From the IMG/VR virus record IMGVR_UViG_2563366870_000005: a stretch of DNA of 41,444 nt. The stretch is one strand, 5' to 3'. Source of the DNA: a virus. Lineage: Duplodnaviria; Heunggongvirae; Uroviricota; Caudoviricetes. A program made the position numbers and the translations under genes. Within the stretch, counting starts at the first letter, position 1, and each line of letters begins with the position of its first letter. Below the pieces are notes generated by a model that was given only the letters and a program-made list of their open reading frames with translations, ran no database searches and was not told the DNA's origin. Below, in pieces: positions 24,430 through 41,174 of the stretch.

Positions 24430-24558
24430 AGCTCTGACCTCTACGTTTTGCTACGAAAAAATTTTCTGAGAACCACGTCTGTTTATCCGTGGGTGTGGAT
24501 AACGCAGTTCCGATTCGCATATTGCATGTATCAACATGCAAAAAGTTGCTAATGCGGA

Positions 24559-24746
24559 GTGGAACCACCTGCCCCCACCTGGAACCACCTTTTCCTAACC
24601 TTTCCCTCAATCGACTTATATATATGGGGTTTCTAGTAGAAAGGTGGTTCCAGTGGTTCCAGTGGTTCCACCCCGCTTGCCACAAGGTCTGCAAGGTGGA
24701 ACCACCTTCTCTTTTAGGTGGTTCCGCGTGGTTCCAGCGGTTCCCA
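24559..24746. repeat. Iteron array, candidate replication origin
   Basis: At least eight copies of a 9-10 bp motif (TGGAACCACC / GGTGGTTCCA) in both orientations: two direct copies 20 bp apart (24560-24589), an AT-rich block (24611-24640), three tandem inverted copies (24643-24670), and more at 24696-24746. Confidence 0.7.
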
Positions 24747-26900
24747 AACCTTGCATTTTTTCCCCCCAATTCGCCTTTGGGCACGCTTATACCCGCAATT
24801 TTGCAAAACATTACTAATTCGCATTTCTTCGCGTTTTCCGATGCGGTCAGGATTTAGCCCAATCGCATCACGCAAAACATCACTTGCGCGTAAAAATTCG
24901 CAATTTCGCGGAAGTTCATTAGTCATCAGGTCTGGCGTGTCGAGCCATTTCTCTACCGTTTCAAGCCAAGCATCCTTGATGGTGTACTGTTCATGGACAC
25001 TCGCTGCCAGTTGTTCAGCCTCACGGAACTGGATACCCCCCAGACGCTGAAACACCTCACGAGCCTCAGCCCAAAGTAAAAGGAGATCTCTTTTTATCGC
25101 TTTCACGTCGACTTTCGACACTTCCACGGGGAGCCAGCGACGGTTACCAGTCTTGTCCGCAAGGAATTCGTCCTCATTGGTGGTACCAACGAACACCAGG
25201 CGACGAGGAAACTGGGTGGCGAACTCCCGGTATTTCGGGATCCAGTTTTCGTGAGTACGCGTCACAAACGCTTTGATTGACTCCAGCTCTTTGGTATTAA
25301 GTCCGCGCAGTTCACCAATCTCTGCCACCAGCCGACCACGCATTTTTCGAGCGAGATCATCGTCTTTTTCGGCAAAAGAGATTTCAGTAAAAAACGCAGG
25401 ATCAGGGCTCAGTGCCTCCACTCCGGAAGACTTACCGCAGCCCTGCGGACCAACGAGGATCGGCACCATATCCGCTTTGATGCCTGGCTCCAGTACTCGC
25501 CCCGCCAACGCGGTCCACATGTACATAGACACCGCACGGGTATAAGGCGTGTCGGCTGTACCGAAGTGCGTATGGTAGAAACATTCGATGCGCGGCACGC
25601 CATCCCACTCCAGTCCGTTCAGCCAGGTGATCGCTGAATCGAATGGTTGTTCATCGGCTGCAAGTAACACCACATCGCGAATAAGTTCACGACCAACAGG
25701 TTTAAATCCCCGCTTTTCCATCGTGATGCGCAGGCGCGCATAATCCGCATCGGTGAATGCCCGCCATTGTCCGGATCCTGCAGGGGCAAACATGATTTCG
25801 TCGCGGAACTGGTCAAAGCGAATATCGATGTCCACAAAATCAGGGCGTACTACTGCTTTGGCTGCGTTGCTGATGGTTGCCTCGATACGCCCCCATTTAT
25901 CACGCTCGAAAGCAGGCAGCGGTAAAGGTTCCGCCACTTCGGTGCTGGTCAGATCTTCGAAATCGTCGTTGCGGATCCCGATGGCATTAAGGAAATCTCC
26001 GTCATCACGATGCGCACAACTGGCATGCAGGCATTTAAAATGCCCCTGCTCAAAGCCCGCGGTTCCCGCAGGAAAATAAACTGTGCTTGTTGGATCGCCC
26101 CCGCTACTGTGGCCGTCTTCAAACGGACAGCGGATATATCGTTCACCATTTGCGCCATCCAGCAGCGTCCAGCCATTGGCATCAAGATATTCAGCTGTAT
26201 CATCCGTCGCGCCGGGCGTGAATGCTGATCGGTCGCGCATCTTCGTGTTGCCCGCTTCGGTGGTTACCGACACAGGGAGTTGTTCAGCCAGGCGCTGCCA
26301 CAGCGTTTCAAGCTGCTCACCAGTAATAGCCGGAGGTTCATCCGGCAAACCGCCGTCCCATTCGATACGCGCGCCGCTGCTGTGCGTACCGCAGGCAACA
26401 AACTGCTGCCCGTTCGCCAGCAGCTCGATAATCCCCATATCGCCCGCCAGACGGTGGATGCGCTTACGGAAATCGCCGTCAACGGCCAGCAGGTACAGGC
26501 ATTTGTTACTGTTGGCGCGCCAGCGACGCGGCGGCAGCTCACCAAGTAGCTGCACCAGCGTTTTGCGAATATCGGCCTGGATATCTTCGTCTTCGCTGTC
26601 GCAGTCCAGCGCCAGCCAGCCATGGCCTGTACGCACGCAGATGCCATAATCCGGTTCATTCGACCAGCGGGCAAAATCATGCTCAGTAACAACATGACCG
26701 GTCCATTGAGCAATACCGGTGACCTGACGGTCCCGGTTATAGCGACTTGGCGTCTTACCCAGCGCTTTCAGTTTACTGTCAGGGGATATAGTCGCACCGG
26801 GGTTACATACAACTGGGAGAAGATGATCAGTTCTCCCCAATACCAGGTCGAAATGAAACCACTCATCAGGCGTAGCTCCCCATGGTTTGCTATCGGACAT
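24714..26900 (-). CDS. DNA primase, P4 alpha-like (N-terminal primase-polymerase domain, Cys/His zinc motif, C-terminal Walker-A NTPase domain)
   Basis: 728-aa ORF; zinc-binding-like motif (CPFEDGH ... FKCLHASCAH); Walker A GPQGCGKSS; size and architecture of phage/plasmid P4-family primases; iterons overlap its 3' end. Confidence 0.75.
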   Translation of the reverse strand: MSDSKPWGATPDEWFHFDLVLGRTDHLLPVVCNPGATISPDSKLKALGKTPSRYNRDRQVTGIAQWTGHVVTEHDFARWSNEPDYGICVRTGHGWLALDCDSEDEDIQADIRKTLVQLLGELPPRRWRANSNKCLYLLAVDGDFRKRIHRLAGDMGIIELLANGQQFVACGTHSSGARIEWDGGLPDEPPAITGEQLETLWQRLAEQLPVSVTTEAGNTKMRDRSAFTPGATDDTAEYLDANGWTLLDGANGERYIRCPFEDGHSSGGDPTSTVYFPAGTAGFEQGHFKCLHASCAHRDDGDFLNAIGIRNDDFEDLTSTEVAEPLPLPAFERDKWGRIEATISNAAKAVVRPDFVDIDIRFDQFRDEIMFAPAGSGQWRAFTDADYARLRITMEKRGFKPVGRELIRDVVLLAADEQPFDSAITWLNGLEWDGVPRIECFYHTHFGTADTPYTRAVSMYMWTALAGRVLEPGIKADMVPILVGPQGCGKSSGVEALSPDPAFFTEISFAEKDDDLARKMRGRLVAEIGELRGLNTKELESIKAFVTRTHENWIPKYREFATQFPRRLVFVGTTNEDEFLADKTGNRRWLPVEVSKVDVKAIKRDLLLLWAEAREVFQRLGGIQFREAEQLAASVHEQYTIKDAWLETVEKWLDTPDLMTNELPRNCEFLRASDVLRDAIGLNPDRIGKREEMRISNVLQNCGYKRAQRRIGGKKCKVWEPLEPRGTT

Positions 26901-26903
26901 GGG

Positions 26904-27116
26904 TTAAGCCTTTTTATCGTTTTGTGAGCCATACAACAGCCAATTAGGGTCGCAATCCAATGCTATAGACATTTCAAGAAGATAACGTGGCCGAGCAATA
27001 ACACCACTTTCAATTCTGTTTATTGCCTGCTGGCTCACTCCTGTGAGCTCAGCCAACGTAACTTGCGTCATTTTGAGTTCTTTACGTCGTTCTTTTACTC
27101 GGGTCGCTAAGGTCAT
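26904..27116 (-). CDS. Cro-like HTH transcriptional regulator (XRE family)
   Basis: HTH motif (MTQVTLAELTGVSQQAINRIESG); preferred start ATG 27114-27116 with SD GAGGTGA; divergent from the CI-like gene and heads the minus-strand operon. Confidence 0.75.
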   Translation of the reverse strand: MTLATRVKERRKELKMTQVTLAELTGVSQQAINRIESGVIARPRYLLEMSIALDCDPNWLLYGSQNDKKA

Positions 27117-27174
27117 TGCTTTCACCTCATACAATTTTAGTGGTATTTAGCAACAACAAACGAGGTTTGTCAAA

Positions 27175-27211
27175 TACAACAAAAATTGTTTTTAATGTGG
27201 GTATACACATT
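27175..27211. promoter_or_regulatory. Candidate operator sites in the cro/cI divergent region
   Basis: Palindrome AATGTG-GGTATA-CACATT (27194-27211) and TACAA-N6-TTGT (27175-27189); the latter geometry recurs downstream of the CI-like gene (27996-28011). Confidence 0.35.
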
Positions 27212-27236
27212 AATACAACCCAGAAGGACTAATCCC

Positions 27237-27860
27237 ATGTCTCTCGCAGCCCGTTTTAAAGCACGTCGTTTGGAATTAGGAATGACTCAAGTGGAAGTAG
27301 CGAATTCTGCAGGGGTTAGCCAACAATCCATAGAATCCATCGAAAGTGGACGAACCAGAAAGCCACGCAATCTTCTGGATCTGGCTAAGGCCTTGAAATG
27401 TAGCCCAGATTGGCTACTGAACGGTAAAAATATTATGCCTCTCGCGGAGATAAGTACCAGACGCATACCTATATTAAGTTACGTTCAGGCAGGAGAGCTT
27501 ACAGAAGCAAGAGACATAACAGATCTGACAGGGGAATTTGAATATATTTTGGCAGACTCTGACATTCCAGAAACATGCTTCGCATTACGTATTGATGGCG
27601 ACAGCATGCAACCAGAGTTTAAAGAAGGAGACATTGTTATCATCGATCCTGATCTATGTCCTGCACCAGGGGAGTTTGTTGTCGCCAAAAACGACGGTCA
27701 CGAAGCTACATTTAAAAAATACCGTCCATTAGGAATCGGCATCGACGACTTTGAATTAATCCCCCTAAATCCTGATTACCCTATTTTTCGTAGTGCAGAT
27801 ATGAACTTACAGATCATAGGTGTAATGATCGAACACCGTATTTACCGCCGTAAACGTTAG
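27237..27860 (+). CDS. CI-like repressor (N-terminal HTH, C-terminal S24/LexA-like peptidase domain)
   Basis: HTH (LGMTQVEVANSAGVSQQSIESIESG) plus C-terminal S24-like region (RIDGDSMQPEFKEGDIVIIDP ... KKY); ATG 27237 with SD AGAAGGA; track start 27186 is TTG. Confidence 0.8.
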   Translation: MSLAARFKARRLELGMTQVEVANSAGVSQQSIESIESGRTRKPRNLLDLAKALKCSPDWLLNGKNIMPLAEISTRRIPILSYVQAGELTEARDITDLTGEFEYILADSDIPETCFALRIDGDSMQPEFKEGDIVIIDPDLCPAPGEFVVAKNDGHEATFKKYRPLGIGIDDFELIPLNPDYPIFRSADMNLQIIGVMIEHRIYRRKR

Positions 27861-27964
27861 TATTCCCACCGTAAATATCGGGAGGCGTAACAGCCTCCCT
27901 TACCCCATTTGTAAAGTATTACAAATTAAATTCACTTAAATATCAATAAAGTAGTATTCACACC

Positions 27965-28011
27965 CCACAAAATACCACATTTGTGGTTTACACAATACAA
28001 CTCAAATTGTA
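27965..28011. promoter_or_regulatory. Candidate operator/regulatory palindromes downstream of the CI-like gene (PL-like region)
   Basis: CCACAAA-N8-TTTGTGG (27965-27986) and TACAA-N6-TTGTA (27996-28011) in a ~320-bp region without convincing coding sequence. Confidence 0.3.
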
Positions 28012-28182
28012 TCTTTAGCCACAAGTCGAACGGCGCGACTCTAAACCATGCGTCGGGACCGTGGCGGGACAGGATGTCGGCAATACGGGTCAGTAAGTTC
28101 CCTTTGGGGTGCGGCGAAGCACTGTCTACTGATACAAGTCGAAGCCGCCGAACCACCAAAGTGAACTGAATGAGGAAACGGC

Positions 28183-28377
28183 GTGAAAACGTATAAACCG
28201 CTCAAAGGTGAATGCCCTGCTTGCCAAACACAGCTTCAGACACCAAAGCCAAAACGATACCAAATCAACGAATGTTATGAGCACTGCCCTGGATGTGGTG
28301 CTTTCCTGCATACCATTGCAACGCACTGGCGTGTCCGCTTCAACCTTGTGGTACCACGTACGCACAATACCAACTGA
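28183..28377 (+). CDS. Small zinc-ribbon protein (CxxC ... CxxC)
   Basis: 64-aa ORF, GTG start with SD GAGGA 7 nt upstream; Cys pairs CPACQ and CPGCG; followed by a terminator. Confidence 0.5.
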   Translation: MKTYKPLKGECPACQTQLQTPKPKRYQINECYEHCPGCGAFLHTIATHWRVRFNLVVPRTHNTN

Positions 28378-28408
28378 ATCATCCATGTAATTGCTGTGTG
28401 TAGTCTTT

Positions 28409-31500: not shown

Positions 31501-33003
31501 GTGTCAACTTTGAGAATCGGTATGGAAATCCAAGAGTTTGTAAGTCACTATAAAAACCACCCTGTTCTATTCATTGGAACAGGATTTAGCCTACGGTATC
31601 TAGAAAACTCATTTAGCTGGGATGGTCTTCTTTTGAGTGTCGCAATGGAACTAACCGGTAATGCTGAGTTTTACTACGATTTGAAAGCTGAAAGCCTAGA
31701 AGGTGACGACTATCGATATGATATCTTAGCTACAAAACTTGAAGATATTTTTAATAAAAAGCTGGCAGAAGATCGTAACGGTAAGTTCAAAGACATCAAT
31801 GATGTTTTCTATGAGCACATGAAAAAAGGAAAAAAACTAAGTCGATTCAAAATTTATTTAACTTCAATACTTAAAGACCTAAAGATAAAAGAGTCAATGA
31901 TGGAGGAAATAAACAGCTTAATAAAAACAAGAAAAAACATAGGCTCCATCATTACAACAAACTACGACCAACTCGTAGAGAACATCTTCGAATTTAACCC
32001 ACTGATTGGTAACAACATTCTTTTAAGTAACCCATACGGTTCAGTTTACAAAATACATGGCTGTGTTAGTGATCCTAACAACATAATTATCACAGGTGAA
32101 GACTACGCAAACTTCGACAATAAATATGAGTTAATTCGCGCTCAATTACTCTCAATATTCATACACAACCCTATCATATTTATAGGGTATAGTATTAGCG
32201 ATAAAAACATTAAGTACTTATTAAAAACCATATTCTCATACGTTGACTTAAATACCGAACTTGCAAAAAGGATAAAAGATAATTTTCTTTTGGTTGAATA
32301 CGAAAAAGACAGCATGTCAACTGAAATTACGGAGCATGACATAGATATAGAAGGCATGTCTATCATAAGAATAAACAAAATAAAAACAAACAATTACAAA
32401 GCTGTATATGATGCCATCTCGGGACTAGTTTTGCCAGTATCCGCAATGGACATAAGAAAGGTTCAAAAAGTTTGGAGTACCATCAAAAGTGGTGGTGAGA
32501 TAAAGGTTAAAATTACAGAAAATTTAGATGAACTTCGCAATGATGAAATGGTCATTGCTGTTGGTTCAGAAAGAACCGTACAATATGTTTATCAAACAAA
32601 ATCTGAAATGATACAGAACTATTTTAAAATAGTTGACGAAGCAAACTCTCAGCTTATCGCATTACTGAATAAGCAAACCATAGCTAATAGCGAACACTTT
32701 CCAATATACGCTTTTAGTTCTATCTGCCCTGAACTAGAAAATACCGAGACATACAGAAAACGGCAGCTAGATAAAATCATTGGTAACCTTTCTCGAATTA
32801 AAACATGTAAGAGTGAGGCTGTGTCTATTGATGAAATACTAAAAGAAACGAAAGAGTATAAAGTTGCTAACACGATTATGTATTGCGTACTAAACGATAC
32901 TATTTCATTGAAACAACTACGAGATTATTTAACAAAACCAGGGCATAAAATTGATACCCAATACAGGCGACTTTTATGCTTGTATGATTATTTATCATAT
33001 TAA
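31501..33003 (+). CDS. SIR2-like (ThsA-like NADase) domain protein with uncharacterised C-terminal domain; candidate anti-phage defence gene
   Basis: N-terminal motifs in ThsA order: VLFIGTGFS, IITTNYDQLVE, KIHGCVSD, IIFIGYSISDKN. GTG start with SD AGAGG 6 nt upstream. Lys/Asn/Ile-rich and visibly AT-rich compared with neighbours; own terminator. Confidence 0.7.
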   Translation: MSTLRIGMEIQEFVSHYKNHPVLFIGTGFSLRYLENSFSWDGLLLSVAMELTGNAEFYYDLKAESLEGDDYRYDILATKLEDIFNKKLAEDRNGKFKDINDVFYEHMKKGKKLSRFKIYLTSILKDLKIKESMMEEINSLIKTRKNIGSIITTNYDQLVENIFEFNPLIGNNILLSNPYGSVYKIHGCVSDPNNIIITGEDYANFDNKYELIRAQLLSIFIHNPIIFIGYSISDKNIKYLLKTIFSYVDLNTELAKRIKDNFLLVEYEKDSMSTEITEHDIDIEGMSIIRINKIKTNNYKAVYDAISGLVLPVSAMDIRKVQKVWSTIKSGGEIKVKITENLDELRNDEMVIAVGSERTVQYVYQTKSEMIQNYFKIVDEANSQLIALLNKQTIANSEHFPIYAFSSICPELENTETYRKRQLDKIIGNLSRIKTCKSEAVSIDEILKETKEYKVANTIMYCVLNDTISLKQLRDYLTKPGHKIDTQYRRLLCLYDYLSY

Positions 33004-35160: not shown

Positions 35161-35376
35161 ATGTCATTTAAATACCGGGACAATCCACTTTATTACAGGG
35201 CTGCAAGGGAAGCTTTGCGACTTGAACAATCCGGCGAATATGACCGGGCAGCGGAGGTCTGGGCAAAAGCCAACCGCGAATCACATCACGAACTGAATCA
35301 GGAATGGAGTGAACGCAGATCTGATTTTTGCCTGATGCAGAACATGCGTGAAAAGCGTAAGGCGGTCGAAGAATGA
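35161..35376 (+). CDS. Small hypothetical protein
   Basis: 71-aa ORF with ATG start, translationally coupled (ATGA) to the next gene. Confidence 0.5.
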   Translation: MSFKYRDNPLYYRAAREALRLEQSGEYDRAAEVWAKANRESHHELNQEWSERRSDFCLMQNMREKRKAVEE

Positions 35377-35672
35377 TCGTTTACGTTGCCGGGCCGATGA
35401 GCGGTTACGAGCAATTTAACCGCCCGGCCTTTCATTCCGCAGCAAAGAGGCTAACGGACAAGGGATATGTTGTGCTTAACCCCGCAACTTTACCCAATGG
35501 TTTGACACAGGCTCAGTACATGGACATCTGCCTCGCAATGCTTCGCTGTGCCGATACGATTTATATGCTCAAAGAGTGGGAGTACTCTGCCGGCGCACGT
35601 GCAGAAAACGCGTTGGCAGAGAAACTGGAATTGAATGTGCTTTTTGAAGAGTGGGATTCAGATGGCCTATGA
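35373..35672 (+). CDS. DUF4406-like protein (nucleoside 2-deoxyribosyltransferase-like fold)
   Basis: 99-aa ORF beginning MIVYVAGPMSGYEQFNRPAF, as in DUF4406 proteins common in phage replication modules. Confidence 0.55.
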   Translation: MIVYVAGPMSGYEQFNRPAFHSAAKRLTDKGYVVLNPATLPNGLTQAQYMDICLAMLRCADTIYMLKEWEYSAGARAENALAEKLELNVLFEEWDSDGL

Positions 35673-35955
35673 ACGTGAAAACCTAATCGAGAAGCATCTC
35701 GTCGCCGAAGTGAAAAAGGCTGGTGGGGTCGCCTTTAAGTTCATATCACCTGGTCGCCGCTCGGTACCAGATCGCATTGTTCTGCTACCCGGCGGCCGTC
35801 TCGTTTTCGTTGAATGTAAATCTCCCGGCAAGCCACCACGGCCTGACCAGTTGCGCGAGCATGAACGTCTGCGAAAGCTGGGCTTTACCGTGGTAGTACT
35901 GGATAGCAAAAATCTGGAGGGGATATTGTGCGGGGAGCCTATTACAACGAAATAG
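35662..35955 (+). CDS. VRR-NUC domain nuclease
   Basis: Motif PDRIVLLPGGRLVFVECKSPGK (D ... E-x-K) typical of VRR-NUC PD-(D/E)XK nucleases; ATG 35662 overlapping upstream stop; track start 35635 probably too far upstream. Confidence 0.65.
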   Translation: MAYERENLIEKHLVAEVKKAGGVAFKFISPGRRSVPDRIVLLPGGRLVFVECKSPGKPPRPDQLREHERLRKLGFTVVVLDSKNLEGILCGEPITTK

Positions 35956-36941
35956 ACCCTAACGCAGCACAATGGCTGCGTAACCTTATTGCTGCGGGTC
36001 ATATCGCCCCGGGTGAAGTTGATGAAAGGAGTATCGAAGATGTCGCACCAGACGACTTGCGCGGATTCACACAGTGCCATTTCTTCGCCGGGATCGGCGT
36101 CTGGTCTTATGCTCTGCGTCTGGCCGGATGGCCGGATAACAAACCGGTCTGGACAGGAAGTTGCCCGTGCCAGCCTTTCAGCTCGGCTGGTAAAGGCGCT
36201 GGGTTTGATGACGAGCGGCACCTATGGCCAGCACTATTCCACCTCATCAGCGAGCGACGCCCTAAGCTGGTATTTGGCGAACAGGTTGCGGGAGTCAATG
36301 CCTGGTTCGATCTTGTACAAACTGACGTGGAGGCAGTGGACTACGCCTTTGGGCTTGTCCCGTTTCCGGCTGCGGGCGTCGGTGCCCCGCATATCCGAGA
36401 TAGAGCGTATTGGGTGGCCGACGCCAGCGGCGAGCGACCACAGCGGTGGCGAAAGCGCCTCAATAGCATTGAGGAAGATGTCTGGAGATCGTCGACCGTC
36501 CGGCAACACGCTACACAGCTCCCTGCGGGATTTTGCTCACCTGGCGGGGTGGTACACCCCAACCTGCAACACAAACCCACAGCCGGAGACAAAACGCGGT
36601 CTAGAAACCTTAGCGGGGCTATCCAGATTAGCGGGATGGCCGACAGTGACGACGGTCGACAACAACCAAGTTCGTGGCGAGGGCGCAGCGGCCAATCATA
36701 CCAAACGGGGAACGACCCTCGGCGGCCCAATACGATTAACAGCTGCTGGGATGATGCTGACTGGCTCCTCTGCCGGGATGGTCGCTGGCGGCCAGTTGAA
36801 TCCGGCACATTCCCGTTGGCTCATGGGATTACCTCCAGAGTGGGACGACTGCGCGCCTACGGCAACGCGATAGTCGCACCAGCTGCCGCAACATTCATCC
36901 GCTCGTTTATGGAATGCGCAGGATACGACCTCATCTGTTGA
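35928..36941 (+). CDS. DNA (cytosine-5)-methyltransferase, orphan
   Basis: Motif I FFAGIGV, motif IV PCQPFS (catalytic Cys), C-terminal RAYGNAIV; GTG start with SD GGAGGGG; no adjacent restriction endonuclease recognised. Confidence 0.75.
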
Positions 36942-36943
36942 TA

Positions 36944-37873
36944 TTATGGGTTAGGTAATGCACGATTATTAAAATTATCAATAATTTGCAACGCCGCCGT
37001 TTGTCCGCCAGCCAATAGCCCTGCTTTACTCAGAAGGTATTTAGGGAATTTGGTTGGTAAATAAACCGCACGAAGCCAGTGCCTGAATACAGCTAAAGCA
37101 TTATCAGGGTATGCATAGACCATTTGGGGATTACTTGCGGATTGGTTGAATTCTTCAGGGTAATAGTGCTGGCAGCGTTGTCTTGGGCCAATCGTCGCAT
37201 CGTAGTTGGAAGAAGACCAGTAGCGAGCCCAATGCTGGCCCACACTGATATCCGGTACAGTGTACTGGTTTACTGCTAATCCAGCATGGATGAGGTCTAC
37301 CATTAAACCGGCAATTTCATTGAATACAATGAAGTGTCCAGCAGGAACCGAGTTTGCCCCATGCATGATTGACACACGAGAGTGGTAATGACGCCAAGGG
37401 TCATCAGGTATGTAGCCAAGCGCTGTATAGATGTAACCACGCATACCCGCACGGGATAGCTCGCGGAAAAACTGTAGCGCAGTAGGAGTTGCAGCACTTT
37501 GAGATACAAATGCGTAGAACTCCAGAATAGCCATACAGACTACTTCTGGGTACGCATAATGGACTGACCCATCTTTGTTGATTGGGATATAAAGAGTCGG
37601 CTCATTATATTGCTCACGCTGTAAATATGAGCTGATAAACTCCATACGCCCTCGAGCGAAAACTCCGTGGCGGAAGCTCTCTTCCCACTCTCGAGAAATA
37701 TCCGCGATATTACTGCGATGCACCCCGCAAATCCTGGCCAGCCCATTTTGCGTAAGGTAGGAGATCCCGTTCTGAAGAACCCCCATTTCTATTTCGTTAA
37801 AAACCCCCTCGGTACTAACACCTAAGTCCAGTACTTGTTGGGGTGCGGGTTGCTGACCACCAAATTCACTCAT
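36944..37873 (-). CDS. Hypothetical HTH-domain protein, opposite strand to flanking genes
   Basis: 309-aa ORF with ATG and SD AAGGA; N-terminal HTH-like motif (LTQNGLARICGVHRSNIADI) plus ~220-aa unrecognised C-terminal domain; convergent with the methyltransferase (stops 2 bp apart). Confidence 0.6.
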   Translation of the reverse strand: MSEFGGQQPAPQQVLDLGVSTEGVFNEIEMGVLQNGISYLTQNGLARICGVHRSNIADISREWEESFRHGVFARGRMEFISSYLQREQYNEPTLYIPINKDGSVHYAYPEVVCMAILEFYAFVSQSAATPTALQFFRELSRAGMRGYIYTALGYIPDDPWRHYHSRVSIMHGANSVPAGHFIVFNEIAGLMVDLIHAGLAVNQYTVPDISVGQHWARYWSSSNYDATIGPRQRCQHYYPEEFNQSASNPQMVYAYPDNALAVFRHWLRAVYLPTKFPKYLLSKAGLLAGGQTAALQIIDNFNNRALPNP

Positions 37874-37983
37874 TTTATTGTTTATCCTTACATTTAACCC
37901 TGTGGGTTACCTTCGCTGTGAATAGTAAAAATTGCCAGGCCAACTGGTGCGACCTCTAACTAGCAAAAATTTGCGAGATTATA

Positions 37984-39378
37984 ATGCCTCAAAACTTTAT
38001 CCCTCGCCCCTACCAAGATCTCATTATCAACCACGAAATCGACATCATGCGCTGCAACATCTGGGCAGGTATGGGAATGGGTAAAACCGTAGCGACACTC
38101 ACCACGCTGGAAGATCTTTTCATGGCTGGAGCAGAAACACGACCCGCGCTGGTCCTCGCGCCGCTACGCGTTGCAGCAAGCACCTGGCCTGATGAAGTTG
38201 TTAAATGGGGGCATCTGCGTAATATTGAGGTACAGCCGATCATCGGTAACGCCAAAGCGCGCTCTACAGCGCTGGCGAACAGCAACGCGAGCGTGTTCAC
38301 AATCAACTACGATAACCTTGTCTGGCTGGTTGAAGAATTGGGAGAACGATGGCCGTTCGGTACTGTCATTCCAGATGAAAGCACCCGGCTAAAATCCTTC
38401 CGGCTGCGAGGTGGTGGTAAGCGCGCGGCGGCGCTGGGCAAAGTGGCGCACAAGTATGTCCGGCGCTGGATAAATCTCACCGGTACGCCAGCACCGAACG
38501 GCCTGGTAGATTTGTGGGGACAATCGTGGTTTGTGGACCAGGGGCAACGTCTCGGGCGCACTTACGGCGCGTTTACCTCACGCTGGTTCAATTCGATACA
38601 GTTTCCGGGGCAGAGCTGGACCAAACTGGAGCCTTTTGCTCACTCACAGGGTGAAATACAGCGAGCGTTAGCCGATGTGACCCTCTCGCTGGATGCGGCC
38701 GACTGGTTCGATATCAAAGACCCCATCCATAACGTAATCCGCGTGGATATGCCGCCGAAGGCCCGTCAGCAGTATCGTGAAATGGAAAAGGAAATGTTCC
38801 TCGAGCTGAATGGCGAAGGCATCGAAGCACCGAACGCCGCGGCCAAGACACTGAAGTGTCTGCAAATCGCCAGTGGCGCAGTATACACAAACGACACCGG
38901 AAGTTGGTCAGAACTGCATGACACCAAACTGCAGGCGCTGGACAGCATACTGACCGAAGCAGCTGGCGCACCTGTGCTGGTTGCTTATCACTGGAAACAC
39001 GATCTTGAACGCTTGCTTAAAGCATTCCCTCGCGGTCGTCACCTCGACCAAGATCCACAGACACTGCGCGACTGGAATTCCGGAAAGATTCCTGTTCTCT
39101 TTGCACACCCAGCCAGCGCGGGCCACGGTCTGAACATGCAGGACGGCGGAAACATACTGGTATTTTTCTCACACTGGTGGGACCTGGAGCAGTATCAGCA
39201 AATTATTGAACGTATCGGCCCCACCAGGCAGATACAGGCCGGACACAATCGTCCGGTATTTATTCACCACATTATTGCGGCCGACACTATGGACGAAATG
39301 GTGATGGAGCGGCGCAACTCAAAACGAACAGTGCAGGACATCCTGCTCGATGCCATGAAAAAGAGAGGTATAGCATGA
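37984..39378 (+). CDS. SF2 helicase (DEAD/DEAH-like, SNF2-related)
   Basis: Q-motif RPYQ, Walker A GMGKT, motif II DEST, C-terminal helicase region; 464 aa. Confidence 0.75.
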   Translation: MPQNFIPRPYQDLIINHEIDIMRCNIWAGMGMGKTVATLTTLEDLFMAGAETRPALVLAPLRVAASTWPDEVVKWGHLRNIEVQPIIGNAKARSTALANSNASVFTINYDNLVWLVEELGERWPFGTVIPDESTRLKSFRLRGGGKRAAALGKVAHKYVRRWINLTGTPAPNGLVDLWGQSWFVDQGQRLGRTYGAFTSRWFNSIQFPGQSWTKLEPFAHSQGEIQRALADVTLSLDAADWFDIKDPIHNVIRVDMPPKARQQYREMEKEMFLELNGEGIEAPNAAAKTLKCLQIASGAVYTNDTGSWSELHDTKLQALDSILTEAAGAPVLVAYHWKHDLERLLKAFPRGRHLDQDPQTLRDWNSGKIPVLFAHPASAGHGLNMQDGGNILVFFSHWWDLEQYQQIIERIGPTRQIQAGHNRPVFIHHIIAADTMDEMVMERRNSKRTVQDILLDAMKKRGIA

Positions 39379-39575
39379 GCGAGAAACCCGACGATTTACT
39401 CACCCCAGATGAAGTATGCCAAAAGTTAGGTATTACACAGAAAACGCTATGTGAGTGGAATATTAAGCATCGTCATCGGGCTATCCTGGCACCAATTCGT
39501 TTCAGTGCAAAAGTAGTTCGTTATGAGCGCCGAAATGTCGACGCTTTTATTCAAAAGTGTCGCAGCCAGTATTAA
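39375..39575 (+). CDS. AlpA/excisionase-family HTH protein (putative Xis)
   Basis: 66-aa ORF (LLTPDEVCQKLGITQKTLCEW) typical of AlpA/Xis-like regulators; adjacent to and convergent with the integrase; SD AGAGG. Confidence 0.7.
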   Translation: MSEKPDDLLTPDEVCQKLGITQKTLCEWNIKHRHRAILAPIRFSAKVVRYERRNVDAFIQKCRSQY

Positions 39576-40969
39576 CCTCGCCGCCGTAGCAATGCAACCT
39601 GCGCAAGTATGCTCCGCTCATGAGCCTCGAAAGCTTCGCGCTTTAACGCAATCTCTTCCTGTAAAATCTCATCAGAAAAGTCGTAATGTTCTGCCATCGG
39701 GTCATCTGACTTGCTGGAGTGGTGAAGGCAAAGGAGGCTGATTTCCCTTCGGTCTGATCGGGAATAGCCTCTTTCCTTCATCAAGGCAATAACATTGCTC
39801 TTAAGGAATTTACGGCACATCGTATTAAATGCACCGTCTTTCCCTTTAACAGTCCCATCATGTTTTATTCCTTTTACAGCCCCGTCCGGGCTGTATGTTT
39901 TCACCAGCTTATCCAGTGATCGTTTTGAAAATGGCTGCATTGGATCACGTGGCTGCAAAAATACATAATCCCTGTTGCACTCAGGAACTGAATCACGCCA
40001 GGCTTTCTGCTCGTCGATAATCCGCCGGATCTCAGGCGTTATCGGCAGGCGGAAAGCCTTTTGTGTTTTCATAGCCCCTCGCATACCGATAACCCCTTCC
40101 GGATAAACAATTTCACCAGCCTCCTCGTGAACGTAGTCCCAGCGCAGGTTATGGACATTAATCGGACGAACGCCAGTGATGATCATGAAGCGAACAGCAT
40201 TCTTCTGGTGTACAGAGGTGCAGGCAGCAACATTGAGCCAGAGTCGGGCGATTGATTCAATATCGGTAAAAAGCCGTGTGGGGGTAGGTTTCTGTACGCG
40301 GGAGGAAACATAATCATCTGGCAGACTGGCGGCAACATTGCGGCCGTTGCAAAGAGTAGGTGCGCAGAACTTCCAGAACCGACGGAGCTCGGCAAACAAC
40401 TCCAGGGCGTTATTGTTCGAGCGAGTGGCGATCCACTCGTCCAGCACTTCCACCAGCCGATTGTATGTTACGTCGCTGAACACCTCACGCTCGCCGAACG
40501 TTGCTTTAATCCGGTCGATACGCACCCCGTAGGTTGTGAAACTGTCCGGGCTCAGCTTCTGCCGGGCGACTTTGGCTTTGAGGTCATCCCGGTACATTTC
40601 CAGCGCTGCATGTACGGACTCTGCCCGCAAGCCACAGTCAGCCATACCTAGCGCTTTTTCGCGCGCCAGCTGGATAGCGAGCTCCGGCCACTCGCCGAGC
40701 TTTTTACCCTTGAGGCCCATCTTTTTTGGAAACTCGGCGTAAAATGTAACCTTACCGGCTTTGCTGAAATCGATACGGAGATAGTTCTCTTTTTCGTATT
40801 TGGAACGGCGAGCCACGCCGGAAGCAGCGAGGATGATTTTGGCGGCAGCAACACAGATTTTCATGTGTGCGCTGGTATAGGGGGGTTTACAGGCGTCCCA
40901 TTTTTCAGATGCGGCTAAAACATCGTCATTATTGGGGCTATCCGGATTATGTGTTACAGTGCGCGGCAT
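39572..40969 (-). CDS. int: Integrase (tyrosine recombinase family)
   Basis: Recombinase-like motifs (ITGVRPINV with Arg; LLCLHHSS ... AEHY with His and Tyr), but the usual HxxR His is not obvious; preferred start ATG 40967-40969 with SD AAGGA; track start 40975 is TTG; last prophage gene before the host gene. Confidence 0.6.
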   Translation of the reverse strand: MPRTVTHNPDSPNNDDVLAASEKWDACKPPYTSAHMKICVAAAKIILAASGVARRSKYEKENYLRIDFSKAGKVTFYAEFPKKMGLKGKKLGEWPELAIQLAREKALGMADCGLRAESVHAALEMYRDDLKAKVARQKLSPDSFTTYGVRIDRIKATFGEREVFSDVTYNRLVEVLDEWIATRSNNNALELFAELRRFWKFCAPTLCNGRNVAASLPDDYVSSRVQKPTPTRLFTDIESIARLWLNVAACTSVHQKNAVRFMIITGVRPINVHNLRWDYVHEEAGEIVYPEGVIGMRGAMKTQKAFRLPITPEIRRIIDEQKAWRDSVPECNRDYVFLQPRDPMQPFSKRSLDKLVKTYSPDGAVKGIKHDGTVKGKDGAFNTMCRKFLKSNVIALMKERGYSRSDRREISLLCLHHSSKSDDPMAEHYDFSDEILQEEIALKREAFEAHERSILAQVALLRRRG

Positions 40970-41174
40970 TCTCAATCCTTATCTGCGTAGGCGCAGAAAA
41001 CAAGCTCACACATACAAGTCTTTTCTACGGGACAAAATGCAATGTGTTGCGGTTTTGTGTTGCTGGACTGAGTTTATCAAGGTTAAATATACTGGATCAA
41101 CATACAGTAAGTTAATGACAGTAAAGCATACAAACTCGATACAACTTACTGATTTTAAAATGATTTAACGGTAA

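What the first reader, a model, noticed from the sequence alone, without database searches (positions are those of the whole stretch)
36942..37983. Convergent HTH gene among the replication genes with a 2-bp stop-to-stop gap
A 309-aa protein (N-terminal HTH plus unknown C-terminal domain) is encoded on the opposite strand with its own SD and promoter region. Its stop is 2 bp from the methyltransferase stop, leaving no room for terminators, so transcriptional interference is likely. Antirepressors and accessory/defence genes are often found in this kind of position.
Basis: partly seen in the sequence, partly recalled or inferred. Interest (0 to 1): 0.5.

Follow-up and report, generated by a model that had tools for sequence, protein, structure and literature searches.

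The report
BstA abortive-infection gene with self-immunity repeats
The opposite-strand gene is a known prophage anti-phage defence gene (BstA), already catalogued in the paper that discovered the family; it carries the short DNA repeats that probably stop it from attacking its own prophage.

Summary
A 309-aa ORF lies at 36944..37873 (-), and its stop codon is 2 bp from the stop of the cytosine methylase gene. The gene is a full-length member of the BstA family of prophage abortive-infection proteins (PADLOC BstA E=2.5e-110; PHROG 6287 E=6e-98; 38% identity to BstA of Salmonella phage BTP1). The identical protein (WP_001288450.1, E. coli O103:H2 12009) is one of the 72 homologs listed in Table S1 of Owen et al. 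2021, so its identity is already known. The context differs from the textbook layout: the gene is not downstream of the cI-like repressor, which is 9 kb away. It stands alone, antisense, in a cargo slot between the methylase and the SNF2 helicase of a prophage next to yfhL. All six relatives at 59-66% identity that I placed in this prophage type occupy the same slot, with 3' ends abutting or overlapping in five. Around the start codon I found a pair of direct repeats 57 bp apart (GTAACCCACA / GCAACCCGCA; 37840-37910). They sit where the mapped BTP1 anti-BstA (aba) self-immunity element lies. In 54 of 101 bstA loci a locus-specific repeat pair occurs at 56/57 bp in this position. Function, promoter and transcriptional interference remain untested.

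The parts
36944..37873 (-). bstA coding sequence (309 aa, stop codon included)
   Evidence: ORF. PADLOC BstA PDLC02356 E=2.5e-110 over residues 10-303. PHROG 6287 'BstA abortive infection system' E=6e-98. 38% identity over 94% of the length to BTP1 BstA. The protein has the consensus residue at every column that is invariant across the 107 aligned family members.
37409..37822 (-). N-terminal KilA-N/APSES-like DNA-binding domain (about residues 18-155)
36947..37408 (-). BstA C-terminal domain (about residues 156-309; PF26567)
37840..37910 (-). Candidate cognate anti-BstA (aba) self-immunity element: 37 bp upstream of the ATG plus the first 34 bp of the CDS
   Evidence: It occupies the same position as the mapped 63-bp BTP1 aba, which is 29 bp upstream plus 34 bp of CDS with terminal CCCGCC repeats 56 bp apart. 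The window repeat pair matches 8 of 10 at offset 57, with at most 6 of 10 at any other offset from 50 to 63. Shuffle p = 0.007. See the family statistics.
37897..37910 (-). Repeat r1: GTAACCCACA followed by GGGT. It is non-coding and contains the in-frame TAA that closes the upstream frame.
   Evidence: GGGT is invariant in the 8 aligned subclade loci.
37840..37853 (-). Repeat r2: GCAACCCGCA followed by CCCC. It lies inside codons 7-12, which encode the low-confidence N-terminal tail.
   Evidence: pLDDT is 51 for residues 1-10.
37885..37889 (-). Shine-Dalgarno AAGGA, 11 nt upstream of the ATG
   Evidence: Read directly from the sequence. AAGGA plus an A(A/T)CAA motif before the ATG recurs across most of the subclade alignment.
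37874..37983 (.). 110-bp divergent intergenic region between bstA and the SNF2 helicase gene. The bstA promoter should lie here but was not identified.
   Evidence: No minus-strand sigma-70 match at 9 of 12. A weak terminator-like hairpin lies at 37955-37937 (-). RNA folding z-score is +0.24.
36942..36943 (.). 2-bp gap between the convergent stop codons of the methylase gene and bstA
   Evidence: No terminator is predicted on either strand.
36932..38000 (.). Exchangeable cargo cassette: the stretch not shared with sister prophages
   Evidence: Alignment with the BH100N and A34 prophages loses homology in the last codons of the methylase gene and regains it about 6 codons into the SNF2 gene.
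35928..36941 (+). Flanking DNA cytosine-5 methyltransferase gene (convergent neighbour)
   Evidence: PF00145 E=2e-12.
37984..39378 (+). Flanking SNF2-family helicase gene (divergent neighbour)
   Evidence: PF00176 E=2.8e-12.
27186..27860 (+). CI-like (HTH_3 + Peptidase_S24) prophage repressor, 9 kb from bstA

Best explanation
The gene encodes a BstA-family abortive-infection protein carried as cargo by an E. coli prophage integrated next to yfhL. By analogy with the characterised BstA proteins of BTP1, Klebsiella and E. coli, it would be made in the lysogen. When an unrelated phage infects, BstA would gather at the replicating foreign DNA and block its replication. The infected cell would then die without releasing progeny, which protects the lysogen population and the prophage in it. 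When the resident prophage itself is induced, BstA would be neutralised by a cognate DNA element, aba, which I predict lies at 37840-37910. That element consists of two locus-specific 10-nt direct repeats 57 bp apart that straddle the ribosome-binding site and start codon. Steps shown here: family membership, domain architecture, prophage context, the conserved cargo slot, and the presence and family-wide conservation of the repeat architecture. Steps inferred: expression in the lysogen, the defence phenotype, and the idea that the repeats confer self-immunity. Also inferred: because this subclade is not co-transcribed with the repressor, early-operon transcription running antisense through the gene after induction may help to shut it off.
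For: Family membership: PADLOC BstA E=2.5e-110 and PHROG 6287 E=6e-98, both full length. 38% identity over 94% of the length to BTP1 BstA. 329 homologs were found; all 120 listed carry PF26567. The protein has the consensus residue at all columns invariant across 107 aligned members. The identical protein WP_001288450.1 at NC_013353 3182172-3183101 contains the interval AP010958 3183047-3182178 listed in Table S1 of Owen 2021.

Fold: two domains, with a KilA-N/APSES-like N-terminus.

Prophage context: integrase, CI-like and Cro-like regulators, antiterminator Q, and terminase, head and lysis genes in the near-identical DEC5E prophage.

Conserved slot: six of the seven looked-up homologs at 59-66% identity lie antisense between the SNF2 helicase gene and the small gene(s) next to PolA of this prophage type; the 3' ends overlap the neighbour by 9-18 bp in five of them.

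aba: in BTP1 the element is 29 bp upstream plus 34 bp of CDS, with terminal direct repeats 56 bp apart whose point mutation abolishes immunity. In 53 of 79 loci the best repeat pair has offset 56 or 57, where about 4 would be expected. 54 of 101 loci reach at least 8 of 10 matches at 56/57 bp, against 0-3 of 101 at control offsets. Within-locus r1/r2 identity is 8.09 of 14, against 5.06 across loci, permutation p <= 1e-4, and no other locus's r2 matches the window's r1 better than its own among the 101. 17 of the 42 loci where an in-frame stop separates r1 from the ORF still reach at least 8 of 10, so the constraint acts on DNA. The window pair scores 8 of 10 at 57 bp, p = 0.007. The CL707 locus, which resembles bstA-Ec, and a Klebsiella phage locus show the same layout.
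Against: No experiment exists on this homolog. It is not next to the repressor, so the paper's presumed route of expression, sharing the repressor's promoter, does not apply, and no consensus promoter was found. The window repeats are imperfect (8 of 10). The short core AACCCRCA is not enriched in the window (5 found, 3.1 expected). In the 6-locus test at a fixed 57-bp offset, covariation is only marginal (exact permutation p = 0.065). BstA-Ec was reported to be less active than BstA-BTP1 against coliphages. How aba works is unknown even in BTP1, and a single chromosomal copy supplied in trans did not protect.
Confidence: 0.8

Rival explanations
1. The repeats around the start codon are operator sites through which BstA, or another regulator, controls bstA and/or the divergent SNF2 promoter. 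They would not be a self-immunity element, or self-immunity would be only a by-product of titration by multicopy operator DNA.
For: The repeats lie in a 110-bp divergent promoter region and overlap the RBS and start codon. BstA has a DNA-binding N-terminal domain. In BTP1, aba works in trans only at high copy number, which is what titration of a DNA-binding protein would look like.
Against: In BTP1 the element is needed for prophage induction titres, and its function did not require transcription of aba. The two readings do not exclude each other.
Confidence: 0.25
2. The protein is a KilA-N-type antirepressor or regulator that acts in the prophage's own lysis-lysogeny or replication control, not in defence.
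For: It has a KilA-N-like N-terminal domain and sits among replication genes.
Against: The match to BstA models covers the full length, including the BstA-specific C-terminal domain. The local Pfam copy gave no hit at all, so no ANT or Bro-N hit. The gene is dispensable for the prophage type: sister prophages carry unrelated cargo in the slot, and only 15 of the 160 E. coli genomes matching this module carry it. Three diverse BstA proteins tested by Owen 2021 all confer defence.
Confidence: 0.05
3. The gene is an inert passenger. It would be silent in this context because it lacks a promoter, or because it is silenced by convergent transcription.
For: No consensus sigma-70 promoter was found. 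There is no terminator, and the gene is packed tightly against its convergent neighbour.
Against: The ORF is intact and has the consensus residue at all family-invariant columns. It is at least 99.3% identical in 15 genomes. The same slot and orientation are kept in relatives down to 59% identity, which argues for long-term selection. SD and spacing recur across most of the subclade. Consensus scans miss many real promoters.
Confidence: 0.08

Closest known systems
BstA-aba system of Salmonella prophage BTP1 (Owen et al. 2021, PMC8585504)
   Same: Both are about 309 aa and align over the full length (38% identity), with a KilA-N-like N-terminal domain plus the BstA_C domain. Both are carried by prophages. 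Both have direct repeats 56-57 bp apart that straddle the start codon, with r2 ending at nucleotide +34 of the CDS.
   Different: BTP1 bstA lies directly downstream of cI in the rexAB position, presumably shares the repressor's promoter, and has its own Rho-independent terminator. Here the gene stands alone, antisense within the early/replication operon 9 kb from the repressor, with no predicted terminator. The repeat sequence also differs (AACCCnCA rather than CCCGCC), as expected for cognate specificity.
BstA-Ec (E. coli NCTC10963; the CL707-like lambdoid immunity region) and the bstA genes reported only in lambda-like prophages at tRNA-Arg hotspot #32 (PMC10121019)
   Same: Same host species and same protein family. 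The CL707 locus also has a repeat pair (ATCCCTnCA) 57 bp apart around the ATG.
   Different: Only 32% identity to the CL707 homolog. The prophage type is different (PolA, SNF2, DUF2800 and Enc34-SSB module) and so is the integration site (beside yfhL). The gene is not adjacent to the repressor.
Lambda RexAB and other defence 'morons' in prophage cargo slots
   Same: Both are accessory abortive-infection genes carried in an exchangeable slot of a temperate phage. Here the gene also has lower GC than its flanking genes.
   Different: There is no sequence or mechanistic relationship. RexAB is a two-protein membrane-depolarising system, whereas BstA is a single DNA-associated protein with a DNA-encoded antidote.

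Membership tests
BstA abortive-infection family (Owen et al. 2021) | Full-length sequence homology to BstA | tested here: met
   PADLOC PDLC02356 E=2.5e-110 (residues 10-303 on profile positions 4-289 of 292). PHROG 6287 E=6e-98. tblastn to BTP1 st313-td/bstA gives 38% identity over 94% of the length. The identical protein lies at the coordinates listed in the paper's Table S1.
BstA abortive-infection family (Owen et al. 2021) | Two-domain architecture: an N-terminal KilA-N-like DNA-binding domain plus a C-terminal BstA domain, with a boundary near residue 155 | tested here: met
BstA abortive-infection family (Owen et al. 2021) | Carried by a prophage | tested here: met
   Integrase 39572-40975, CI-like and Cro-like regulators, antiterminator Q, and a replication module. 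Structural and lysis genes are present in the 98-99% identical DEC5E prophage.
BstA abortive-infection family (Owen et al. 2021) | Located directly downstream of the prophage repressor, presumably sharing its promoter (frequent in the family, but not universal) | tested here: not met
   The repressor is at 27186-27860 (+), while bstA is at 36944-37873 (-), 9 kb away on the opposite strand. The paper states this layout holds 'in many cases', so it is typical rather than defining.
BstA abortive-infection family (Owen et al. 2021) | A cognate aba DNA element overlapping the 5' end of the gene, with terminal direct repeats | tested here: inconclusive
   The sequence architecture is present: GTAACCCACA / GCAACCCGCA at 57 bp, 37 bp upstream plus 34 bp of CDS, p = 0.007, in register with the family-wide repeats. 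Self-immunity function cannot be tested in silico.
BstA abortive-infection family (Owen et al. 2021) | Abortive-infection phenotype: block of foreign phage DNA replication and protection at the population level | not testable with these tools
   This needs plaque, burst and survival assays. Three homologs at 40-48% identity to each other were all active in Owen 2021.
KilA-N / ANT / Bro-N antirepressors | ANT (PF03374) or Bro-N (PF02498) domain, or similarity to an antirepressor outside the KilA-N-like domain | tested here: not met
   No Pfam family at E <= 0.01. The only other PADLOC/PHROG hits are weak (HTH model 9e-10; phrog_19425 E=0.041). The C-terminal domain has no PDB relative.
Conserved replication-module protein of this prophage type | Presence in all members of the prophage type, on the same strand as the operon | tested here: not met
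   Only 15 of the 160 E. coli genomes that match the methylase/SNF2 module carry it. The sister prophages examined have unrelated minus-strand cargo in the slot.

The most novel reading that the evidence does not exclude
The anti-BstA self-immunity element may not be peculiar to BTP1. It may be a family-wide module at a fixed position: two locus-specific direct repeats 56-57 bp apart that straddle the bstA start codon. r1 is often non-coding, and r2 dictates the sequence of the disordered N-terminal tail. The repeat cores co-vary within loci and differ between them, so they would be the determinants of cognate BstA-aba specificity. If so, the window's subclade, whose r1 ends in GGGT and whose r2 ends in a C-rich tetramer, gives a ready set of natural specificity variants. 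These include AACCCnCA, GGTTACA and AGCTCAC in otherwise similar loci. I found no statement of this family-wide architecture in Owen 2021 (search for 'repeat' in the main text) or in the four later papers that the library search returned.
Probability: 0.6. Interest if true: 0.5.

Novelty: already known. Interest (0 to 1): 0.3.

Why it matters
The gene explains itself: it is a defence gene that the prophage carries to protect its host from other phages. It is not a replication or regulatory oddity. As an identification this is routine, because PADLOC would call it and the discovery paper lists it. Two points add modest value. First, one BstA lineage lives stably outside the repressor locus, antisense inside the early operon of a PolA/SNF2-type prophage. 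Co-transcription with cI is therefore not required for the system, and a different shut-off route after induction is needed. Second, the comparative analysis predicts where the cognate aba of this and of about 50 other loci lies, and which bases carry specificity. That turns an open question from the 2021 paper, how aba is recognised, into simple repeat-swap experiments.

Tried and rejected
- Pfam and NCBIfam scans of the 309-aa protein returned nothing. The local Pfam copy evidently lacks PF26567.
- The PDB sequence search with a 107-sequence profile gave no hit at E <= 1.
- Foldseek against the PDB gave nothing at E <= 0.001.
- Rfam found no family anywhere in the window.
- RNA folding of the junction and of the 5' region was no more stable than shuffles, with z between -0.3 and +0.9. 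This argues against a terminator, riboswitch-like leader or structured antisense RNA.
- The promoter scan found no minus-strand sigma-70 match upstream of bstA. The one minus-strand hit (36972-36943) lies at the 3' end of the gene and is within chance expectation.
- The r1 palindrome AACCC-ACA-GGGTT looked like an operator, but the left half is not conserved in the subclade. Only GGGT is invariant there, preceded by C(A/G), so I treat the palindrome as coincidental.
- A central A-rich motif (AACAA) seen in the family consensus is 6 nt out of register in the window, so I did not use it as evidence.
- The core AACCCRCA is not enriched elsewhere in the prophage, so there is no sign of extra BstA sites.
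- The alternative cargo proteins of sister prophages have no convincing Pfam hit (one UNC-50 match, below its cut-off) and no PADLOC hit.

Full report
**1. Observation**

The window holds an ATG-initiated ORF of 309 codons at 36944..37873 on the minus strand. The upstream plus-strand ORF, 35928..36941, is a cytosine-5 DNA methyltransferase (PF00145) and ends with TGA at 36939-36941. The minus-strand stop TAA occupies 36946-36944. Two bases (36942-36943) therefore separate the convergent stops, exactly as reported.

An AAGGA Shine-Dalgarno lies 11 nt before the ATG. The 110 bp between the ATG and the divergent SNF2 helicase gene (37984..39378; PF00176) must contain the promoter, but the consensus scan found no minus-strand sigma-70 site there. 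By eye there are only a TACTAT (37927-37922) and a TATAAT (37983-37978), neither with a credible -35.

No intrinsic terminator is predicted at the convergent junction on either strand. RNA folding of that stretch is no better than shuffled sequence. GC drops from 0.58-0.61 in the methylase gene to about 0.45-0.50 across the ORF and rises again in the helicase gene.

**2. What it is**

Pfam and NCBIfam gave nothing. Two other libraries identify the protein over its full length:
- PHROG 6287, 'BstA abortive infection system, replication inhibitor', E = 6e-98.
- PADLOC BstA, E = 2.5e-110.

tblastn against phage genomes finds BstA (st313-td) of Salmonella phage BTP1 at 38% identity over 94% of the length. 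The best phage hit is Pseudomonas phage PseuP_222 at 50%. The large protein database returns 329 homologs. All 120 listed carry the precomputed Pfam BstA C-terminal domain PF26567, including a 100% identical E. coli protein. In a 107-sequence alignment the window protein has the consensus residue at all 47 invariant columns.

The identical protein, WP_001288450.1, is annotated 'hypothetical protein' at NC_013353 3182172-3183101 in E. coli O103:H2 12009. Table S1 of Owen et al. 2021 (PMC8585504) lists AP010958 3183047-3182178 among its 72 representative BstA homologs. That interval lies inside this CDS. The identity of the gene is therefore already on record, although this homolog has not been tested experimentally.

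**3. Structure**

An AlphaFold2 model built on the 107-sequence alignment is confident (mean pLDDT 87.8). The first ten residues are low-confidence (pLDDT 51).

**4. Context**

The window is a prophage integrated beside yfhL in E. coli. Its parts include:
- a tyrosine integrase at 39572-40975 (-) and an AlpA-like HTH gene at 39375-39575;
- a plus-strand early/replication operon: DUF2800 nuclease, Enc34-type ssDNA-binding protein, family-A DNA polymerase, DUF4406, VRR-NUC, methylase and SNF2 helicase;
- a CI-like S24 repressor at 27186-27860 (+), a Cro-like gene, a VapE-like primase and antiterminator Q.

The near-identical DEC5E prophage supplies terminase, head and lysis genes.

In the BTP1, PseuP_222 and CL707 phage records bstA follows the repressor directly, in the rexAB position. 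Owen et al. stress this layout. Here the repressor is 9 kb away and bstA is on the opposite strand, so that typical feature is not met.

**5. The slot**

Among 5426 complete E. coli genomes, 160 match part of the methylase-to-SNF2 stretch, but only 15 carry bstA. In those 15 it is at least 99.3% identical and sits in the same arrangement.

Sister prophages hold other minus-strand cargo at the same place. Strain BH100N has a 106-aa ORF whose end overlaps the methylase stop by 4 bp. Strain A34 has two ORFs of 71 and 166 aa that begin 5 bp after VRR-NUC. These cargo proteins have no convincing Pfam hit and no PADLOC hit. Homology between the prophages breaks in the last codons of the methylase gene and resumes about six codons into the SNF2 gene.

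I looked up the homologs that are 59-66% identical to the window protein and have enough flanking DNA (P0002, P0003, P0006, P0010, P0012, P0013). All six lie in this slot of the same prophage type. Each is divergent from the SNF2 gene and convergent with the small gene next to PolA. In five of the six the 3' ends overlap by 9-18 bp. A Xenorhabdus relative lies antisense between Dam and SSB genes with a 4-bp overlap.

The tight convergent junction is therefore a conserved property of this BstA lineage and of the slot. It is not an accident of this one locus.

**6. The self-immunity element**

In BTP1 the prophage escapes its own BstA through aba. This is a 63-bp DNA element made of 29 bp upstream plus the first 34 bp of bstA. 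It has terminal CCCGCC direct repeats, and single-base changes in either repeat abolish immunity. The element acts as DNA and is specific to its cognate protein.

I asked whether the window has an equivalent. I anchored 80 bstA loci from genomes and phages on the invariant Met30 codon.
- In 53 of 79 non-redundant loci, the best direct-repeat pair in the 130 bp upstream has an offset of 56 or 57 bp, where about 4 would be expected if the 36 allowed offsets were equally likely. The pair also sits at a fixed position.
- With 101 loci, 54 reach at least 8 of 10 matches at 56/57 bp, against 0-3 at seven control offset pairs.
- The repeat sequence differs from locus to locus (for example CCGGCCACC, GGTTGCCACC, CAGGTCGCCCCCCC, TGGTCA). 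It matches within a locus: mean 8.09 of 14 within loci against 5.06 between loci, permutation p <= 1e-4.
- In 42 loci an in-frame stop separates r1 from the ORF, and 17 of those still score at least 8 of 10. The constraint is therefore on DNA, not on a peptide repeat.
- The CL707 locus matches the 3' end of the primer used to clone bstA-Ec. It has ATCCCTnCA twice, 57 bp apart. A Klebsiella phage locus has TGGTCA twice, 57 bp apart.

**7. In the window**

r1 is GTAACCCACA followed by GGGT (37910-37897). It contains the in-frame TAA. r2 is GCAACCCGCA followed by CCCC (37853-37840), inside codons 7-12. The two cores match at 8 of 10 positions at offset 57, and at no more than 6 of 10 at any other offset between 50 and 63. 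In a test restricted to the family's position and offsets, shuffles give p = 0.007. No other locus's r2 matches the window's r1 better than its own among the 101.

In the eight loci of the window's subclade the best offset is 57 (seven loci) or 56 (one locus). r1 is always followed by GGGT, and r2 by CCCC, CCCT, TCCC or TCCT in seven of the eight. The cores differ between loci (GGTTACA, AGCTCAC, AACCCnCA).

The predicted aba is 37840-37910: 37 bp upstream plus 34 bp of CDS, ending at the same CDS position as in BTP1. I found no description of this family-wide architecture in the main text of the 2021 paper or in the four later papers that the library search returned.

**8. Mechanism and its limits**

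The most likely reading is that this is a functional BstA-aba system. BstA would be made in the lysogen and would block replication of unrelated infecting phages at the cost of the infected cell. The resident prophage would be spared through its cognate repeats. All of this rests on homology to three tested proteins and on the sequence architecture. Nothing here measures expression or phenotype.

This lineage cannot use the repressor's promoter. How it is switched on in the lysogen, and down after induction, is therefore open. There is no predicted terminator, and the SNF2 and AlpA-like genes lie beyond bstA on the plus strand. Early transcription probably runs antisense through bstA after induction.

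**9. Verdict**

Novelty of the finding as stated: already known. The added value is the non-canonical, conserved antisense slot of this lineage and the prediction of a family-wide, locus-specific repeat architecture for aba.

Noticed in passing
window 31501-33003 (+): A 500-aa SIR2_2-domain protein matches the PADLOC candidate defence family PDC-S25 over its full length (E=4e-158). Its GC is about 0.32, against 0.5-0.58 in the flanks. It sits in a second cargo slot, between the Enc34-type ssDNA-binding gene and the DNA polymerase gene. Related prophages carry other cargo near PolA: a 209-aa hypothetical protein (DEC5E), DUF4145 or UCP028583 proteins (Yersinia), and a CAP12-PCTIR TIR protein on the other side of PolA (L106).
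   Followed up: partly
window 24456-28380: The immunity/primase region (VapE-like primase, Cro-like gene, CI-like S24 repressor) does not align with the DEC5E prophage, although both flanks are about 98.5% identical. This indicates mosaic exchange of the immunity module within the prophage type.
   Followed up: partly
L001 4026-4346 (-); L002 5245-5957 (-): Sister prophages carry unrelated minus-strand ORFs (106 aa; 71 + 166 aa) in the bstA slot. They have no convincing Pfam hit (one UNC-50 match, below its cut-off) and no PADLOC match, so they are possible uncharacterised cargo or defence genes.
   Followed up: partly
L014, L016, L019, L040 and other alphaproteobacterial loci, about -130 to -60 relative to the Met30 codon: In the roughly 340-aa 'long' BstA homologs the called ORF extends over both repeats, giving peptide repeats such as SPAT...SPATP. 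The same DNA positions are non-coding in the short homologs. The N-terminal extension may be an annotation artefact or a by-product of the DNA element.
   Followed up: partly
window 37955-37937 (-): A weak terminator-like hairpin followed by a T-run (AGGTCGCACCAGTTGGCCT GGCAATTTTT) lies upstream of bstA on its own strand, inside the divergent intergenic region. The number of such sites in the region is within chance expectation, and its significance is unknown.
   Followed up: no
window 35161-35376 (+) and 35373-35672 (+): A small PerC/ANR-like regulator (below the Pfam cut-off) and a DUF4406 protein sit between the polymerase and VRR-NUC genes. The adjacent genes from DUF4406 to the methylase overlap at their ends, which suggests tight translational coupling in the plus-strand operon.
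   Followed up: no
RefSeq annotations of the same gene (NZ_AP038976.1, NZ_CP193497.1): The identical gene is variously annotated as 'hypothetical protein', 'PI-PLC domain-containing protein' and 'BstA C-terminal domain-containing protein'. The PI-PLC label finds no support in the searches run here.
   Followed up: no
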